Below, in pieces: positions 616 through 15,305 of a stretch of 64,000 bases of DNA. Source of the DNA: Acanthaster planci (Eukaryota). The notes beneath the pieces are model-generated. The model saw only the letters and a program-made list of their open reading frames with translations, ran no database searches and was not told the DNA's origin. Positions within the stretch are counted from its first letter, which is position 1; the number at the start of each line of letters is the position of its first letter. A program made the position numbers and the translations under genes. The stretch spans positions 1,853,704-1,917,703 of the forward strand of contig NW_019091357.1 in assembly GCF_001949145.1 (NCBI RefSeq), written 5' to 3'.

Positions 616-3470
616 CACCAGATCCGTTATGTGATCCATCTTGCAGCCAAGAAGGCCGTCGGAGAATCGGTGGAACAACCTTTGTTGTATTACCGAGTCA
701 ACATCATGGGCACGCTCAATCTTCTGCATGTAAGTCAGGCGTTAAATCCAAAGCTGGTCGGGAAACGGATTTGTTTCCCGTGAGACGTATCCTGCGCTTG
801 GTGCATGATGATTGTCACTCGATCGTACTGCAGGGTTTGCTGTAAACCTGCTCTCACTGCAGACTTGCTTATACGGACGGTCAGTCATTAGATAATCCTA
901 GATCCTTATTTTTTGTTCGACACGGCAAGTCTTACCACAGTTGCGTCAATTCTGAAGAAAATCTGTCATCACAATATATGTTCATCATTCATAATGAGTG
1001 AATGTGCTGCAGCAGTTATATAACTTTCGAGCGACCTCTCCGTTTGGGTTGGGGCAAGGAATGAAAGTCATTCGCACAAGGAAACTTAAAGATGGGCAAT
1101 CAAACGCGAGGGATGTATAAAATAGGTCAAAAGTGAATTTTTTTTTTACATGCACTGGCCAATGTGTAGGTGATGGAGGAGTTTAAGGTGAACAACCTGG
1201 CTTTTTCAAGTTCCACTACCGTTTACGGCGACCCAGAGAGGCTGCCCATGGACGAGTCGCATCCCACGGGCCGGAGTCTCACTAATCCTTACGGCCGCTC
1301 CAAGTTCACGGTGGAAATGATCCTGAGAGATATCTGGGAGTCCACGCAGGTGAGCGGCATGCATCATTGTTGTTCCCGCAGTGGATGGTACCCCCTCATC
1401 CGCGTGTGTGTGCCACCATCCAGCGCCAGAAAGTAACCTTTGAAAACCTGGTAATAAAAGGGCAGCTTGTCTATACAAAAGCTAGAAAATCACTTTGTTT
1501 CATGATCTAAAAAGGTCGCGTAGACGGCGATTGATTCAGAAATTTTCATAGGTTCTGTGTTTTTGGAGACTGTTTTACCGACATCGAAGAGAAACGTATC
1601 CACCTGCACCTGAGAAGTATCATCAAATTTACGTTTCAATTTCCTCTCTCTTCTCTCAGCACCTGAAGCGCGATTATCCGAGGACGTGGAAGTATGACAA
1701 AAACCAGATAATGGTATGTGTCTTTTACGTTGTGAGAACACCTTGTCACTTTTTCATGATTAATTTTTGGCCATGGGGCCTCCAAGGTGTAGTCGGCTTA
1801 AGGGAGTGAACGAGCGCACTGTTCCTCCTCAACGAGCGTCAATTTCAGCTGCCACGGTGGCCACATCAATCGGAGTAAGGTTTTTAATGACCAGTATATT
1901 AAGACGCTAGCTGCAACCACGCACCTAGCTATCTGCATTTTAGTGCGCCCAATGAAAGGGGAGGGCTTGGGTTTGAATCCCAGCGGTTTGCACTACTACA
2001 AGTTCGTGTGAAGCCACGAATGCGTCAGTTAAGGACCAATACAAGTTGCACCTGCCCCTTTTTTTTTTTATCAAGGACTGGAACATGGTCCTACTGCGCT
2101 ACTTCAACCCCATCGGGGCCCACGAATCAGGCCAGATCGGCGAAGATCCTTGTGGTCCGCCCAACAACCTGGTGCCGTACGCCACGCAGGTCGCCGTGGG
2201 CAAGAGGGAGGAGTTGAAGGTGTTTGGGAATGACTACAGCACCCACGATGGCACAGGTACCGTCAGTCATGAGTGCTGGGGGTCTAATGGTCCCAGTTGA
2301 AGTGATCCAGGTCAAGAGGTTTGCTCGTTTATGTCACCCAAAGACCTGAAGTTTTCACCCGAGAGTGAATCCAAGGAGGTCAATGGGGGCATCCCCCCAA
2401 ACAAAAAGAATAAAAATTATTTTGAAAAGTTGTATTTTGGTTCCAAAAGTAAAAGGCCAAAAAATGTAGCCTCACCATTCCAAACGGCAATGAAGGTTAC
2501 ATTAAAAAATCCAAATTTATGCCCCCCCCCAAAAAAGACAAATTTGCCCCTCCAACAAATTTGGTTCTGGATCTGCCCTTTTCTTTTTACCTTGAGCTCT
2601 TGAAACTCGGCAGCTTTCTACCTGAACTAATTTCTTTCCCAGGTGTCCGTGATTACATCCACGTGGTAGACCTCGCTATCGGCCACGTGGCGGCAATCAA
2701 GAAGCTGGAGGGGAATTGCGGCTTCAAGGTCTACAACCTCGGAACCGGGACCGGCTACTCGGTGCTGGATGTTGTCAGAGGGCTGGAGAAGGCCGCTGGG
2801 AAGAAGGTTGGCGTCCCTTCATGGGTCTCTCCAAAATTTATGTTGGTGTGACAGAGCAATCCAGTCACGATTAACATTTAGGGGAGACTCCAAATACGGT
2901 CACTGCCAACGTCGAAGGAACCATTAATTGCCCAATTCGAATGTTTATTCTGAACATGCGCTGAACAACACTGTTGCAAAAAGTTGACTTTAATGTAATT
3001 CTGTTATGACTGGTCTGAATGTCCTTTCACAGTACTGGAAAAAGGATAAGAAATTCACCTCGAGTCAGACTTGTTTGTCTGTCTGTTTGTCCTGAATTTC
3101 TACGAATCCTTAGAAATCAGAAGTCAATATGGAACTTTGATTTTGTTTGGCAGATCAAGTACAGCATTGTTGGGCGTCGAGGTGGGGACGTTGCTGCCTG
3201 CTACTCCGATCCTACCCTGGCCGAGAAGGAACTGGAATGGAAAGCCGTTAGGGGCCTGGACAAAATGTGTAGGTTATCTCTTTCCTCTGCTGAAAGGACC
3301 CTCAAGCAGCCCAGTGCCTTGAACAAAAGTTCCTATGCTTGAACGAGACGCCATTCTTTGCCATGCCGGATCTTTTACCAAGTCGAATTGAATTGTCATT
3401 TTTTTTTCCTCCTCCAGGTGAGGATCATTGGCGATGGCAATCCCAGAATCCTAACGGGTACGCTCCGTGA
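616..3470 (+). CDS. GALE: UDP-glucose 4-epimerase, 3' part (5' exons lie upstream of the window)
   Basis: Exons 616-729, 1170-1349, 2076-2256, 2643-2806, 3154-3268, 3418-3470 (TGA), all GT-AG with compatible phases. Motifs: [21 protein letters not shown], catalytic YGRSK (YxxxK), [60 protein letters not shown]. Confidence 0.95.
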
Positions 3471-4176
3471 CAAGAGAAGGGAGAGACTTAATTCAAGATG
3501 GCATTAAAGTCATCCTTGGACTGACTAGACATCACAGATGCAGAGGGACATTAGCCTAGATGGGATAAATGGATTAGATTGTCGTAGTGGCTAGATGACA
3601 ATACTTGTTATTTGCACAATTGAAAAAAAAATGACATGGACATCGATAGAGTTTCAAAGTATATGTACTGCATGGACATTTGGGACTCGAACATTAATGG
3701 AAAACATCAAAGAAGGGTTGAACTTGTACAAGACGGAGAAACAGGGATGGGACAAAAGCACGTTGATATCAGAGGGAGATCGGCTTTATTATACTGTTGT
3801 AAGAGTTTGGATTGTAATTGCATAAAATTCAACATAATGTTAACTGAATTTTCTCAGTTTGAAAAGCAAAAGGTGAAGGGTTGAACGTTATTTGTTCATT
3901 TGAAAAGCTAAAAACAATAATGTTAGCAACATATTGATTGGCATGAATTGTAAATCCTTGCGTAGATGAACACTCCTATAAACCAGGCGTTTTGACTGAA
4001 ATTAGTGTCTACCGGCTCAGTTATTGCTGTGTGACTGCTAAGATGAACTAGTCTTGCTTAAGTTGTGATACACTTGGCATTTGTTATCTTCTTGTCTGTT
4101 ACTCATTTTGATCTTATAAGCCAGTAAAGGCAACGATCCGTCAGCACACTCCATATTGCAGTGGGCCTTTGGGCAT

Positions 4177-13600: not shown

Positions 13601-15305
13601 TTAATTACCCGCTGCGACAGCGTCATTCGGTCGGTGAATCCGAGTTGATGGGCCGGAATGTAAGACGGATCGGTTGGGACCCGGAACCTGCGAGAGAAAG
13701 AGATGGGGGCAGTGTTGCTCTTCCCTTACGGGGCTTCAATGGAGGCAAAATGCATGGCGTAATTTTTAGAGCATCTAGTGGATAGCGTTTGTTTTGAATT
13801 ATAACACGGGTCAACAGTTCCACGTGCGCGCTAAATGTACATGCGTGGAGTATAGGATGGCAAGTAACCCACAGTGCCTTGCGCATCAGTTGCTGTGACG
13901 TTTAATAAGGCATTTCACCTTTCCCAGCCCATGAGCCCTGGGGACGAGTGAAAGGGATAGCAAAAATCTAGTAGTCTTAGCACAAAACGTTCTCATCGTT
14001 TGAGCTCTTACACAGCGATTCCAATAGTCTGGCTCTTGGACCTGTGGGAAGTATGAAACCATCAGCATTGCCCCCCCCCCAAAAAAAATTGACAATTTCC
14101 AAACTATTTCGAGGACTTAAAAGGCATTAGTACACTAAAAACTGGGCCTTTCTGACAAGGAAGTGGAAAAAGGCCCAGCTTTCCTATTTCCCAAGATTTC
14201 CCTTGAATGTGCTTGTAGACATTTTGTACAAACACTGACTACTTTTGTGTTGGCAGCCGGTTTCCAGAACTCGCATTTTGCTTCATCAGCCGTAAAGAGG
14301 GGGACATTTTCGTTTACCAGTCACTAGAGGTGTTATTTATTTCTGTGGATTTTTCTTAATGTTTGCTCGAGATTTTGTCGCACTTTGCGAATACGGGCGT
14401 TTCACAATAGTGCGCCACCAAGAGTTTGCAACGCGTTGGCCAATCGCAATGCACGAAATCTGTCGACCCAATGCGCGTTTGGAAAGGGTCGACAGATTTC
14501 ACGCGTTGTGATTGGCCAATGCGTTGCAAACTCTTGGTGGCGCACTATTGTGAATCGCCCGTATTTCCACAGCTGGCCATATATAGTTTTGTCACTGAAA
14601 AAGGAGTTCGCTTGAGGCGCAGCAAAGGAGATGTGCATTTGGTGCTTGGCAGAAGAGTGCAATATCTAGAAGCAACAAATACCAGTGAAATACTCACAAG
14701 GGCCCGTACTTGTCCGGCATGGCACACCAGTTAGCTAACTGCACGAAAGGGATGTCCAGTGCCTCTGCCACGATCGCGTTGCAAAGTGAGAAGTCATCCG
14801 CGACCATCATGTCAAACTGCTCACGACGGAGTCTCGCCATAGTCTTCTCATCCCTCAACAAGGCGTCACACTCGTCAATAAGCAGATAGATCACTAACGG
14901 TTTACCGGTCCGGAGGGTTCGCAAGATCAAGCGGGCTATCCCCGCCGCAGAACTCAGCTCTCCCGAGAGGGAGTAGTGAGACAGTTCCCGGAACACGTCG
15001 CGCCGGCCCTCCGTCGTGTAGTTAGACTGGAAGAAGATGAAGGAAAAGAGATCGTTGTCGTTTGTCTTGGGCGCCCGCGGCCCGTCGCTGCCGACCAGGA
15101 AGAACACGTCGTGCCCCTGACGCGCCAAGACCTTTCCCGACTGGCTGAGCTGCATGCCGTGACTTCCAAGTTTCTCGAAGGAGTAGTACAAAAACTTGTA
15201 TTTTTTGAAGTCTTGCTTAGTCTCCTCGCAGCCTGTCGGAAGCGGTGCTGCTGAAAAGCACATCAACATCAGGAGGAGAGTCCAGGCTGAGAGTGCGGAA
15301 TTCAT
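10657..15305 (-). CDS. UDP-glycosyltransferase (GT1, animal UGT / UDP-glucuronosyltransferase-like), type I ER membrane protein
   Basis: Exons 15305-14698, 13687-13372, 12637-12409, 11923-11701, 10936-10657 (TAA), phases 2/0/1/2 consistent. Signal peptide MNSALSAWTLLLMLMCFSAA, LGSH (catalytic His), LARQGHDVFF, FDMMVADDF, VPTDPSYIP, MTLSQRVIN, LEFPRPMQPN, GFVIFSLGS, UGT signature, C-terminal TM helix and basic tail RRGGRRPKRD. Confidence 0.92.
11271..11429. mobile_element. Palindromic MITE family A copy in the last UGT intron
   Basis: AATATGGGCGATTCACAATAGTGCGTCACCAAGAGTTTGCAACGCGTTGGCCAAT...GCCCGTA; the right arm is partly deleted. Confidence 0.75.
14390..14565. mobile_element. Palindromic MITE family A, best-preserved copy (~176 bp, ~80 bp arms)
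   Basis: Left arm AATACGGGCGTTTCACAATAGTGCGCCACCAAGAGTTTGCAACGCGTTGGCCAATC... is almost the exact reverse complement of the right arm ...GATTGGCCAATGCGTTGCAAACTCTTGGTGGCGCACTATTGTGAATCGCCCGTATT. TA sits at both ends. Confidence 0.85.

What the first reader, a model, noticed from the sequence alone, without database searches (positions are those of the whole stretch)
616..15305. Candidate animal furanose-glycosylation gene cluster: GALE + UDP-galactopyranose mutase + UGT
Seen: three adjacent, unrelated nucleotide-sugar enzymes within 15 kb. The GALE stop is ~2 kb from the UGM ATG on the same strand, and UGM and UGT are convergent with ~2 kb between their stop codons. Established: GALE makes UDP-Galp from UDP-Glc, UGM converts UDP-Galp to UDP-Galf, and GT1 UGTs glycosylate lipophilic acceptors such as ceramides and steroids. 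Sea-star gangliosides and steroid glycosides have been reported to carry galactofuranose, fucofuranose or arabinofuranose, and D-Gal, D-Fuc and L-Ara share the same ring configuration. Inference: this may be an operon-like biosynthetic cluster (epimerise, ring-contract, transfer) for furanosylated glycolipids or saponins. Such clusters are rare in animals.
Basis: partly seen in the sequence, partly recalled or inferred. Interest (0 to 1): 0.9.

Follow-up and report, generated by a model that had tools for sequence, protein, structure and literature searches.

The report
Sea-star luminal furanose mutase locus
In the crown-of-thorns starfish three sugar-nucleotide genes do lie side by side, but RNA data link only two of them, and the middle gene encodes an expressed enzyme, missing from the searched protein collection, that likely makes five-membered-ring (furanose) sugars inside the secretory pathway, which would help explain this animal's furanose-capped glycolipids.

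Summary
The window is Acanthaster planci. It holds GALE (3' part, + strand), a UDP-galactopyranose-mutase (UGM) gene 1.96 kb downstream, and a convergent UGT whose stop lies 2.06 kb from the UGM stop. All three are spliced and expressed.

The "operon-like cluster" reading is only partly supported. GALE has its own broad expression, highest in a run where the other two are silent. UGM and UGT rise together (rho 0.90, 7 runs, thin data). Their Patiria miniata orthologues carry consecutive RefSeq accessions on one chromosome, which indicates conserved adjacency.

The "UGM" is an 812-aa protein with a signal peptide, a complete UGM domain and a C-terminal DUF3431 domain with a GT-A glycosyltransferase-like fold. 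It belongs to a sea-star expansion: at least 8 genes in A. planci and at least 18 in Patiria. It found no identical match in the protein collection, although both neighbours did.

In this orthologue pair the mutase domain is strongly conserved (84%), while the transferase-like domain is degenerate (55%, key motifs lost).

Best reading: a luminal UDP-furanose-producing mutase that serves transferases in trans. The neighbouring UGT has an altered donor motif and is one possible, unproven, consumer.

The parts
615..3470 (+). UDP-glucose 4-epimerase (GALE) paralogue, codons 85-370. Exons: 615-729, 1170-1349, 1660-1713 (an 18-aa micro-exon), 2076-2256, 2643-2806, 3154-3268, 3418-3470.
   Evidence: 100% match to XP_022088294.1. 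All six joints are seen in RNA reads. Pfam Epimerase and GDP_Man_Dehyd match.
3471..4270 (+). GALE 3' UTR (approximate end).
   Evidence: RNA depth continues to the 3739-4272 bin and drops to near zero in the next bin.
4700..4770 (+). Short 5' non-coding exon of the UGM-fusion gene. The start is not mapped; the end is at 4769/4770.
   Evidence: Joint 4769|5391 (GT..AG) in 8 reads of X8 and one contig of X1.
5392..5741 (+). UGM-fusion coding exon 1. ATG at 5426, predicted signal peptide (MASQCNFVSSSLAVFALVCLLLS...) and an acidic linker. An out-of-frame upstream ATG lies at 5413.
   Evidence: Joint 5741|6474 in RNA. tblastn of the Patiria orthologue, residues 7-111, onto 5447-5761: E 1.3e-6. Kyte-Doolittle 17-residue mean of 2.36 at residue 7. 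Sequence read.
6474..7975 (+). Eukaryote-type UDP-galactopyranose mutase domain (FAD Rossmann motif GSGPTG; His loop reads G-V-H).
   Evidence: E 3.8e-118 to 3ute and 1.9e-114 to 4dsg. Active-site residues read from that alignment. His-loop and clade statistics.
7976..8596 (+). DUF3431 (PF11913) domain with a GT-A-like fold, degenerate at the family's conserved polar motifs. Stop codon at 8594-8596.
   Evidence: Pfam 32.1 bits against a cut-off of 25, covering profile positions 1-71 of 219 only. Model pLDDT 78. VIA Z 8.4-6.3 to GT-A enzymes. Motif loss shown.
8597..9078 (+). UGM-fusion 3' UTR (approximate).
   Evidence: X8 depth of about 8 in bin 8545-9078 and about 1 in the next bin.
10657..15305 (-). 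UGT (GT1) gene, 551 aa. Exons: 15305-14698, 13687-13372, 12637-12409, 11923-11701, 10936-10657. It has an N-terminal signal peptide, a C-terminal membrane helix and a basic tail.
   Evidence: The joined exons reproduce XP_022091899.1 exactly. Three joints are seen in X8 RNA: 17, 19 and 6 reads. Pfam UDPGT matches all five exons. E 3.9e-30 to UGT2B15 6ipb.
14383..14572 (.). Hairpin (MITE-like) repeat in UGT intron 1. It is not part of the genes and inflates RNA depth there.
   Evidence: Arms of 87 nt, 90% complementary, 16 nt apart; further copies at 11271-11430 and 10026-10157. Reads run on into unlike sequence at this site.

Best explanation
This 15-kb stretch of the Acanthaster planci genome carries three separately transcribed genes: a UDP-glucose 4-epimerase; a signal-peptide-bearing UDP-galactopyranose mutase fused to a degenerate glycosyltransferase-like DUF3431 domain; and a convergent UGT. 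The mutase is predicted to turn imported UDP-galactose (or a close analogue) into the furanose form inside the ER/Golgi lumen, likely for this starfish's furanose-capped glycolipids, and the trio is likely not one co-regulated cluster.

Shown:
- The gene structures, splicing and expression.
- UGM homology, with 10 of 11 active-site residues kept.
- The N-terminal hydrophobic leader.
- The DUF3431 match and its loss of family motifs.
- The sea-star expansion of the family.
- The orthologue in Patiria, with a neighbouring accession for the UGT orthologue.

Inferred:
- Cytosolic GALE supplies UDP-Galp as a general housekeeping function.
- UDP-Galp enters the lumen through the ordinary UDP-Gal transporter.
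- The fusion's mutase domain makes UDP-Galf there, so no UDP-Galf transporter is needed.
- In this paralogue the tail has lost the family's conserved polar residues while the mutase domain is under strong constraint. The furanose donor is therefore most likely used in trans, by paralogues with an intact DUF3431 domain and possibly by the neighbouring UGT.
For: 1. UGM identity: E 3.8e-118 to AfUGM over residues 8-501. From that alignment, the equivalents of AfUGM R182, N207, Y317, R327, Y419, R447, Y453, N457 and H63 are kept, as are R91/S93/Y104/Q107. The catalytic roles of the TcUGM equivalents were read in PMC4192007. The role of R91/S93 in NADPH binding is recalled.

2. Secretory targeting: there is a hydrophobic segment at residues 7-23 and no Met upstream of the Rossmann motif in the large exon. 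The same leader is present in the Patiria orthologue and in the other named sea-star members that one search printed and could scan. The C-terminal domain is Cys-rich.

3. Expression and splicing: depth is about 16 in X8 and about 1.8 in X11 and X13. The CDS joint appears in 4 of 7 RNA runs. No indel is reported within the CDS.

4. Fusion family: 110 of 121 sequences (the window plus the best 120 hits) carry the C-terminal domain. Named members come from sea stars, a sea cucumber and corals. Stand-alone DUF3431 proteins exist, and 20 of 20 in alignment A2 match PF11913.

5. GT-A-like fold: all 50 rows shown by VIA for the window's domain are nucleotide-sugar transferase-fold proteins (Z 8.4-6.3; GfsA Z 7.2, GlfT2 Z 6.6). 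A pLDDT-91 model of a canonical member gives three Foldseek hits with E<=1e-3 (two ArnC entries and CHSY3-CHPF) and VIA Z 8.6-6.5.

6. Division of labour among paralogues. Window versus Patiria orthologue: UGM domain 84% identical, tail 55%. The pair LOC110988343/LOC119735552 shows the reverse, 70% and 86%, and has lost the catalytic His loop (RVY/RVN).

7. Tail degeneracy: the window departs at 14 of 40 positions that are at least 85% conserved in 38 relatives. It departs at 7 of 15 columns nearly invariant in 19 stand-alone members. N-x-G-R-E reads S-V-H-V-R and H-Y-x-E-R reads D-F-L-Q-T.

8. Product chemistry in the same species: gangliosides with terminal beta-Galf or beta-Fucf (PMC8228791 passages).

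9. GALE is uncoupled in expression.
Against: - The Gly before the catalytic His is Val here. Its main-chain carbonyl binds flavin N5-H in TcUGM (PMC4192007). It is Gly in 99% of the 108 relatives outside the sea-star clade (G-G-H in 101 of the 121 sequences aligned), and Val/Phe/Leu across the sea-star clade. Activity or substrate may therefore differ.
- UGM needs reduced FAD, and no luminal reductant is shown.
- The leader was judged by hydrophobicity only; no signal-peptide predictor was available.
- No enzymology or localisation exists for any member.
- If the tail is inactive, its retention is unexplained.
- The transcript was clearly seen in only 3 of 7 RNA runs.
- The protein found no identical match in the protein collection searched (best match 74%).
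- The strong UGM/UGT rank correlation and the apparently conserved adjacency speak for some link with the UGT, which this explanation leaves open.
Confidence: 0.5

Rival explanations
1. GALE, UGM and UGT form one biosynthetic gene cluster. GALE makes UDP-Galp, UGM contracts the ring, and the UGT transfers the furanose to a steroid or ceramide.
For: - The three genes lie within 15 kb, with no other glycosylation gene among the 26 long open frames tested in the rest of the window.
- A. planci has two GALE paralogues on one 4.57-Mb scaffold. The one here carries a constitutive 18-aa micro-exon, which could mark a specialised copy.
- All three genes are expressed in X8.
- Furanosides are reported from this species.
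Against: - GALE depth is highest (58) in X12, where UGM is 0.17 and UGT 0.03. GALE is present in X15 and X16, where UGM and UGT read 0 to 0.13. Rho is 0.34 and 0.18.
- The genes have separate promoters; UGM has its own 5' exon.
- The window's GALE is as close to the single Patiria GALE (81.5%) as its paralogue is, so it shows no sign of specialisation.
- The Patiria GALE accession is about 2,570 numbers away from the UGT/UGM pair, which is uninformative at best.
- The terminal Galf or Fucf of the gangliosides sits on a sugar, not on an aglycone. That is not a typical GT1 job (my own knowledge).
Confidence: 0.07
2. A two-gene unit only. The mutase-specialised fusion, whose own transferase-like tail has decayed, feeds UDP-furanose to the neighbouring luminal UGT. 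That UGT has a rewired donor pocket and acts as a furanosyltransferase on a lipophilic acceptor.
For: - The Patiria orthologues have consecutive accessions, XP_038054871.1 (UGT, 75% identical) and XP_038054872.1 (fusion, 72-74%), on one 42.4-Mb contig. Consecutive accessions track tandem neighbours in both annotations.
- Depths co-vary: rho 0.90, p 0.006, n=7, and both are highest in X8.
- Both proteins have leaders, and the UGT has the usual C-terminal anchor, so both catalytic parts would face the lumen.
- The UGT signature differs from UGT2B15/17. T-H-G-G reads T-Q-C-G (T-Q-G-G in Patiria) and D-Q reads D-M in both species.
- The UGT's exon 1 found only itself and the Patiria orthologue among 2,196 candidates.
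Against: - The correlation rests on one strongly positive run and several near-zero values from three studies.
- UGT is near zero (0.28) in X11 and X13, where the fusion is at about 1.8.
- Adjacent genes often stay adjacent between two families of one order; I could not measure that baseline.
- At least 7 other A. planci fusions keep intact DUF3431 motifs and are more direct transferase candidates.
- The roles I assign to the UGT signature residues are recalled, not tested.
Confidence: 0.18
3. The fusion is no longer a mutase. The sea-star clade's replacement of the His-loop glycine, together with a decayed tail, makes this paralogue a pseudoenzyme or an enzyme with another flavin chemistry. 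The neighbourhood is then coincidental.
For: - G177 is replaced by V/F/L in 11 of 11 clade members, against Gly in 99% of 108 others.
- V459 is Met in the clade, three residues after the Arg327 equivalent.
- Two clade members have lost the His loop altogether.
- The tail motifs are lost.
- The branch leading to the window/Patiria pair is long, 0.51.
Against: - The mutase domain is 84% identical between the two species, as high as any pair measured, including the canonical UGM pair at 83%.
- All side-chain catalytic residues are kept.
- The glycine's role is through its backbone carbonyl, which any residue provides.
- The gene is expressed and correctly spliced.
Confidence: 0.15

Closest known systems
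Eukaryote-type UDP-galactopyranose mutase (A. fumigatus UGM, PDB 3ute; T. cruzi UGM, PDB 4dsg)
   Same: Full-length homology (E 3.8e-118 and 1.9e-114). It has the FAD Rossmann motif and the catalytic His, Arg, Asn and Tyr residues.
   Different: It carries an N-terminal signal peptide plus a roughly 100-aa leader/linker and a roughly 205-aa C-terminal DUF3431 domain. The His loop reads G-V-H instead of G-G-H. Described UGMs are cytosolic, stand-alone enzymes (my own knowledge).
Fungal Golgi galactofuranose system: cytosolic UGM, the UDP-Galf transporter GlfB/UgtA, and the GT31 transferase GfsA (abstract of PMC11538602 seen in a search listing; PDB 8yrl)
   Same: The same overall task: make UDP-Galf and use it in the secretory pathway with a GT-A-fold transferase. 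GfsA aligns to the window's tail at Z 7.2.
   Different: Here the mutase itself is predicted to be luminal, so no UDP-Galf transporter would be needed. The transferase-like domain is DUF3431, not GT31, and is fused to the mutase.
Vertebrate UGT2B enzymes (PDB 6ipb, 7yan, 2o6l)
   Same: The window's UGT has the GT1 C-terminal donor domain (E 3.9e-30), a signal peptide, a C-terminal anchor and a basic tail.
   Different: The signature residues are changed: T-H-G-G reads T-Q-C-G and D-Q reads D-M, and these changes are conserved in Patiria. The acceptor domain has no close relative beyond Patiria in the search made.
Earlier notes of this scan: e1-9918111 (alga: anchored bacterial-type UGM with a DUF3431-like tail) and e1-7395895 (fungus: UDP-Galf transporter fused to a DUF3431-like domain)
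   Same: DUF3431 is again physically joined to a galactofuranose-pathway protein and again looks glycosyltransferase-shaped. In the alga the tail was also judged catalytically dead.
   Different: Here the mutase is of the eukaryote type, the host is an animal, and the family has radiated to 8-18 or more copies. Those notes are unchecked AI notes on other DNA.
Metabolic gene clusters of plants and fungi (recalled as a concept)
   Same: Non-homologous enzymes of one plausible pathway are adjacent.
   Different: Co-regulation fails for GALE. Only a two-gene adjacency seems conserved, and no product link is shown.

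Membership tests
Eukaryote-type UDP-galactopyranose mutase (EC 5.4.99.9) | End-to-end sequence similarity to solved UGMs | tested here: met
   3ute E 3.8e-118, query 8-501 against chain 6-500; 4dsg E 1.9e-114.
Eukaryote-type UDP-galactopyranose mutase (EC 5.4.99.9) | FAD-binding GxGxxG motif and the substrate/catalytic residues (Tc R176, N201, Y317, R327, Y395, R423, Y429, N433, H62) | tested here: met
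   GSGPTG is present. The equivalents of Af R182, N207, Y317, R327, Y419, R447, Y453, N457 and H63 were read off the alignment. Residue roles come from PMC4192007.
Eukaryote-type UDP-galactopyranose mutase (EC 5.4.99.9) | Glycine preceding the catalytic His (its carbonyl binds flavin N5-H) | tested here: not met
   The window has G-V-H. G-G-H occurs in 101 of 121 relatives, and the sea-star clade has V, F or L. The contact is by backbone, so the functional effect is unknown. I therefore file this protein as a divergent variant, not a typical member.
Eukaryote-type UDP-galactopyranose mutase (EC 5.4.99.9) | Pyranose/furanose mutase activity with reduced FAD | not testable with these tools
   Needs enzymology.
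DUF3431 (Pfam PF11913) | Score above the Pfam gathering threshold | tested here: met
   27.0 bits for the whole ORF and 32.1 bits for the domain alone, against a cut-off of 25. Only profile positions 1-71 of 219 are matched.
DUF3431 (Pfam PF11913) | Family-invariant polar motifs N-x-G-R-E-x-H and H-Y-x-E-R-x-W | tested here: not met
   The window reads S-V-H-V-R-A-Q and D-F-L-Q-T-L-W. N-x-G-[RK]-[EC] is present in 94 of the 110 sequences that have the domain, and H-[YF]-x-E-[RH] in 88 of 106. 4 of the 10 columns invariant in alignment A3 are replaced. This is a degenerate member.
GT-A fold glycosyltransferases | Rossmann-like nucleotide-sugar-binding fold | tested here: inconclusive
   Window domain: Foldseek gives no hit with E<=1e-3, and the top weak hits are all GT-A. 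VIA gives Z 8.4 (5mlz, rmsd 5.0, 167 aligned) down to 6.3, and all 50 rows have this fold. Canonical member: 3 Foldseek hits with E<=1e-3, and VIA Z 8.6 (8viw, rmsd 3.8, 162 aligned). The Z values are middling by the tool's own note.
GT-A fold glycosyltransferases | Metal-binding DxD motif and transferase activity | not tested
   An acidic residue follows the strand T-[IV]-F-x-Q-G-[DE] in many members. Its position in the fold was not examined.
UDP-glucose 4-epimerase (GALE, SDR superfamily) | Sequence identity to an annotated GALE, the Epimerase Pfam domain, and the Ser / Y-x-x-x-K catalytic residues | tested here: met
   100% match to XP_022088294.1. Pfam PF01370 and PF16363 match. F-S-S-S and Y-G-R-S-K were read in the sequence printed.
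UDP-glycosyltransferase (GT1, Pfam UDPGT PF00201) | UDPGT domain along the whole protein | tested here: met
   Five exons cover profile positions 10-478 of 499.
UDP-glycosyltransferase (GT1, Pfam UDPGT PF00201) | Canonical donor signature (T-H-G-G ... D-Q) as in UGT2B15/17 | tested here: not met
   T-Q-C-G and D-M in the window; T-Q-G-G and D-M in Patiria. It is a member by domain, with an atypical donor site.
Co-regulated biosynthetic gene cluster | Physical adjacency of non-homologous pathway enzymes | tested here: met
   Three genes lie within 14.7 kb.
Co-regulated biosynthetic gene cluster | Co-expression of all members | tested here: not met
   UGM-UGT rho 0.90, but GALE-UGM 0.34 and GALE-UGT 0.18. 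GALE peaks where the other two are silent.
Co-regulated biosynthetic gene cluster | Adjacency conserved in related species | tested here: inconclusive
   The UGT/UGM pair has consecutive accessions on one Patiria contig. GALE is unresolved. No echinoderm genome DNA could be read with these tools.

The most novel reading that the evidence does not exclude
Sea stars make UDP-furanose sugars inside the secretory pathway, using a radiated family of signal-anchored 'make-and-transfer' enzymes: a UGM fused to a new DUF3431 family of furanosyltransferases. At this locus, one paralogue that has specialised as a pure mutase is evolutionarily tied to a neighbouring UGT that has become the first GT1 furanosyltransferase. 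Together they form a conserved two-gene unit for furanosylated steroids or glycolipids.
Probability: 0.12. Interest if true: 0.85.

Novelty: new variant of a known kind. Interest (0 to 1): 0.62.

Why it matters
Galactofuranose and related furanoses are absent from mammals. How the few animals that have them build them is largely unknown. For sea stars the chemistry has been described since 1990: Galf-, Fucf- and Araf-capped gangliosides and steroid furanosides. My searches found no enzyme assigned to it (held none).

This locus gives concrete, expressed candidate genes in the very species whose gangliosides end in Galf or Fucf. A luminal mutase would be a different solution from the fungal and protozoan one, which uses a cytosolic UGM plus a dedicated UDP-Galf transporter. 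The repeated fusion of DUF3431 to Galf-pathway proteins also points to a function for a widespread domain of unknown function.

The complementary decay of the two domains in different paralogues suggests which copies to test for which activity.

A. planci is also a reef pest, so species-specific glycans and their enzymes have some practical interest.

Tried and rejected
- The window's whole genome is not held, so genome-wide counts and a chance estimate for the trio were not possible.
- One search failed on a frame error and was corrected.
- The look-up of sequencing runs listed no holder on record as RNA. I laid same-species raw RNA runs instead.
- Echinoderm genomes cannot be read with these tools, so synteny rests on accession numbering only. 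In A. planci itself the adjacent GALE and UGT have distant accessions. Non-consecutive numbers therefore prove nothing, and GALE synteny stays open.
- The DUF3431 profile (A2) against PDB sequences gave 0 hits at E<=10.
- Foldseek on the window's own tail gave no hit at E<=1e-3.
- The careful maximum-likelihood tree did not finish in 300 s. The quick IQ-TREE (SH-aLRT) was used.
- A regex motif count failed for one motif and was replaced by an alignment-based count.
- The search of earlier findings by place and by sequence gave nothing.
- Papers not held: Tanner 2014 and Beverley 2005. Whether Beverley et al. mention echinoderm GLF genes is therefore unchecked.
- Two literature searches were badly framed. 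One search used min_terms 2 and was swamped by taxonomy papers. One search used the word-start term 'furanosyl', which cannot match 'galactofuranosyl'. They show nothing.
- 'DUF3431' occurs in 4 papers, of which 3 were listed. The one I read (PMC5519750) gives no function.
- I did not run complex prediction, because I do not claim that the proteins bind.
- I considered horizontal transfer for the large single coding exon and rejected it. The gene has spliced 5' exons and orthologues and paralogues across echinoderms and corals.

Full report
WHAT IS THERE

The window is from the crown-of-thorns starfish, Acanthaster planci. UGT exon 1 and a GALE exon are 100% identical to RefSeq proteins XP_022091899.1 and XP_022088294.1, both on a 4.57-Mb scaffold.

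Joining the exons at GT..AG sites reproduces residues 85-370 of the GALE protein and the whole 551-aa UGT.
- GALE stop to the next ATG: 1,955 bp.
- The two convergent stops: 2,060 bp apart.

Among 26 long open frames in the other 48 kb, Pfam finds only XendoU, XK-related and bHLH genes.

THE MIDDLE GENE

The 2.15-kb open frame 6443-8593 has no in-frame Met before its FAD motif. RNA reads join 5741 to 6474: X8 17 reads, X11 4, X13 4, X15 1. In X8, 8 reads also join an upstream non-coding exon, 4769 to 5391.

The resulting protein is 812 aa long. It has four parts:
- A hydrophobic leader at residues 7-23 (Kyte-Doolittle 2.36).
- An acidic linker.
- A complete eukaryote-type UDP-galactopyranose mutase domain (E 3.8e-118 to A. 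fumigatus UGM, 1.9e-114 to T. cruzi UGM).
- A roughly 205-aa tail that matches Pfam DUF3431 (27-32 bits against a cut-off of 25, profile positions 1-71 only).

From the alignment I read that the equivalents of Af R182, N207, Y317, R327, Y419, R447, Y453, N457 and H63 are kept. The roles of the T. cruzi equivalents are described in PMC4192007 (passages). One thing differs. The glycine before the catalytic histidine, whose carbonyl binds flavin N5-H, is valine here.

No protein more than 74% identical to this one exists in the 5.8-billion-protein collection, although both neighbours are there at 100%. The gene therefore seems to be missing from the annotated protein set. It is nevertheless expressed and spliced, and the reads show no indel in its coding sequence.

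THE FAMILY

The best hit is Patiria miniata LOC119727075 (805 aa, 74%). It has the same leader, tested by tblastn onto exon 1 (E 1.3e-6).

Of the window's protein plus the 120 best hits, 110 carry the C-terminal domain. Named members come from Patiria, Acanthaster, a sea cucumber (Holothuria) and two corals. Canonical UGMs without the tail also exist in Acanthaster, Patiria and Asterias amurensis, and these too have N-terminal hydrophobic segments.

A quick ML tree of 43 rows was rooted at the midpoint for drawing only. It shows:
- The window's protein pairs with LOC119727075 (SH-aLRT 100, stem length 0.51).
- This pair sits inside a sea-star-only clade of 13 (support 100).
- That clade, with its sister pair (15 rows, support 98), contains at least five Acanthaster/Patiria orthologue groups.
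- The expansion therefore predates the split of these two valvatid families.

I count at least 8 fusion genes in A. planci. In P. miniata I count at least 18 loci: nine representatives plus nine further cluster members.

WHAT THE TAIL IS

Literature: 'DUF3431' occurs in 4 papers of the library, and the one I read gives no function.

Sequence: a profile of 20 members finds nothing in PDB by sequence.

Structure of the window's tail (pLDDT 78):
- Foldseek gives no hit at E<=1e-3, but every weak top hit has the GT-A fold.
- VIA-align against 48,161 chains returns 50 of 50 nucleotide-sugar-transferase-fold proteins. Z runs from 8.4 (5mlz, rmsd 5.0, 167 aligned) down to 6.3.
- These include the fungal galactofuranosyltransferase GfsA (Z 7.2) and mycobacterial GlfT2 (Z 6.6).

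Structure of a canonical stand-alone member (pLDDT 91):
- Three Foldseek hits at E<=1e-3: ArnC twice and CHSY3-CHPF.
- VIA Z 8.6-6.5.

These Z values are middling by the tool's own note. I therefore call the fold GT-A-like and claim no particular GT family.

Two unchecked earlier notes of this scan describe DUF3431-like domains fused to a bacterial-type UGM in an alga and to the UDP-Galf transporter in a fungus. Together with the present family, that is a recurring physical link between DUF3431 and galactofuranose metabolism.

THIS COPY IS A MUTASE SPECIALIST

The window's tail has lost many conserved positions:
- It departs at 14 of 40 positions that are at least 85% conserved in 38 fusion relatives.
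- It departs at 7 of 15 columns nearly invariant in 19 stand-alone DUF3431 proteins.
- The motif L-P-N-V-G-R-E-x-H-T-Y-L reads L-E-S-V-H-V-R-A-Q-V-F-L.
- The motif N-P-E-E-G-H-Y-x-E-R-L-W reads D-E-D-K-G-D-F-L-Q-T-L-W.
- The Patiria orthologue shares most of these losses.

Between the two species the mutase domain of this pair is 84% identical but the tail only 55%. The other four fusion pairs show 73-85% and 67-82%. The pair LOC110988343/LOC119735552 shows the mirror image, 70% and 86%, and has lost the catalytic His loop.

This complementary decay is what one expects if the two domains carry separable activities and the paralogues divide the work.

The whole sea-star clade also shares two changes near the active site. 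The His-loop glycine is V, F or L in 11 of 11 members, against Gly in 99% of 108 others. A Val is replaced by Met three residues after the Arg327 equivalent. This may reflect a changed substrate (UDP-Fuc or UDP-Ara are obvious guesses) or a changed activity.

THE NEIGHBOURS

GALE:
- It starts directly with its Rossmann motif, so it has no leader.
- It has a constitutive 18-aa micro-exon (1660-1713) that is absent from its A. planci paralogue and from the Patiria GALE.
- It is equally distant from both of those (80.6-81.5%).

UGT:
- It has a signal peptide, a C-terminal membrane helix and a basic tail.
- Its donor signature differs from human UGT2B15/17. T-H-G-G reads T-Q-C-G and D-Q reads D-M. 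The Patiria orthologue has T-Q-G-G and D-M.
- That these residues contact the donor is recalled, not tested.

IS IT A CLUSTER?

Seven RNA runs from three studies were laid on 1-16000, with about a fifth of each run read. Depths are sums of both orientations:

| Run | GALE (bin 2671-3204) | Fusion (mean of three bins, 6943-8544) | UGT (mean of two exon-bearing bins) |
|---|---|---|---|
| X8 | 20.6 | 16.4 | 9.1 |
| X11 | 2.5 | 1.8 | 0.28 |
| X12 | 58.4 | 0.17 | 0.03 |
| X9 | 0.08 | 0 | 0 |
| X13 | 3.6 | 1.8 | 0.28 |
| X15 | 7.8 | 0 | 0 |
| X16 | 3.6 | 0 | 0.13 |

Spearman correlations:
- Fusion versus UGT: 0.90 (p 0.006).
- GALE versus fusion: 0.34.
- GALE versus UGT: 0.18.

GALE therefore behaves as a broadly expressed gene with its own regulation. 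The fusion and the UGT rise together, but on thin data: one strongly positive run, many near-zero values, and non-independent runs.

In Patiria the UGT orthologue (XP_038054871.1) and the fusion orthologue (XP_038054872.1) have consecutive accessions on the same 42.4-Mb contig. As a control, tandem paralogues with consecutive LOC numbers also have consecutive accessions in both annotations. Adjacency of this pair is thus very likely conserved. How unusual that is between two valvatid families I could not measure.

The Patiria GALE lies on the same chromosome with a distant accession. This says nothing, because in A. planci the adjacent GALE and UGT also have distant accessions.

MECHANISM I COMMIT TO (INFERRED)

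1. Cytosolic GALE supplies UDP-Gal generally.
2. UDP-Gal is imported by the ordinary transporter.
3. The leader-bearing mutase makes UDP-furanose in the lumen.
4. Transferases use the donor in trans. The most likely are DUF3431 paralogues with intact motifs, and possibly the neighbouring UGT.

This fits the chemistry of the species. [quoted passage not shown] The reviewers themselves postulate distinct furanosyltransferases (PMC8228791 passages; see also PMC7278926, and PMC3509529, for Protoreaster).

Open problems:
- The source of reducing power for the flavin in the lumen.
- The effect of the Gly-to-Val change.
- The role of the decayed tail.

PRIOR PRINT

My searches found no paper on UGM genes, furanosyltransferases or DUF3431 in sea stars. 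Two further searches were badly framed and are uninformative. Beverley et al. 2005 and Tanner et al. 2014 could not be read. A 2026 paper on tunicate horizontal transfer concerns bacterial-type UGMs and only lists '(Echinoderm)' in a table (PMC13390645 passages).

The scan itself has met DUF3431 fusions before on other DNA.

VERDICT

The three-gene cluster reading is largely not supported, because GALE is uncoupled. A UGM/UGT pair remains a live minority hypothesis. The real interest lies in the secretory-pathway UGM-DUF3431 family and its sea-star radiation.

Noticed in passing
window 5426-8596 (+): The 812-aa UGM-DUF3431 gene has no identical or near-identical entry in the protein collection (best match 74%, Patiria). 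Both flanking genes match RefSeq proteins at 100%. It looks unannotated in the A. planci protein set despite clear spliced RNA support.
   Followed up: partly
window 1660-1713 (+): GALE carries a constitutive 18-aa micro-exon ([18 protein letters not shown]), inserted just before the conserved W-N-x-x-L-L-R-Y-F-N-P strand. It is absent from the second A. planci GALE (XP_022093638.1, same scaffold) and from the Patiria GALE. Its joints are as well supported as the neighbouring ones in the five runs with substantial GALE coverage; X9 (near zero) and X13 (low) show only some of them.
   Followed up: partly
relatives P0008 (Patiria LOC119735552) and P0010 (A. planci LOC110988343): This orthologue pair has lost the UGM His loop (W-D-N-R-V-N / W-D-T-R-V-Y) but has the best conserved DUF3431 domain of all pairs (86%). 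It is a natural 'transferase-only' counterpart to the window's 'mutase-only' copy.
   Followed up: partly
window 14383-14572, 11271-11430, 10026-10157 (also about 4180-4209): A hairpin, MITE-like repeat family lies inside and beside the UGT gene. It attracts many RNA reads that continue into unlike sequence, so it is abundant and transcribed elsewhere in the genome.
   Followed up: partly
window 5413-5574 (+): An out-of-frame upstream ATG with a weak context lies 13 nt before the main ATG of the UGM-fusion gene. It opens a roughly 53-codon overlapping frame, a possible uORF.
   Followed up: no
window 19884-21397 (-), 30487-32654 (+), 32967-35381 (+), 54027-54659 (+): Other genes in the window: XendoU endoribonuclease exons; XK-related protein exons followed by an 805-codon open frame with no Pfam match; and a bHLH transcription factor exon.
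   Followed up: no
ESM Atlas clusters: The clusters nearest to the window's DUF3431 domain are DUF3431 proteins labelled mostly as viral (Uroviricota, Nucleocytoviricota). The domain may be common in viruses of microbes and algae.
   Followed up: no
one search hit list: No Asterias rubens or sea-urchin protein appears among the 120 best hits. The only forcipulatid entry is a tail-less UGM of Asterias amurensis. The fusion radiation may be restricted to Valvatida, the order from which the furanose-capped gangliosides cited here come. This is a list effect and has not been tested.
   Followed up: no
window 3622-3623, 10456-10614: Length polymorphisms relative to the window in RNA reads: a homopolymer in the GALE 3' UTR, and three 1-nt indels in the UGT 3' UTR.
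   Followed up: no
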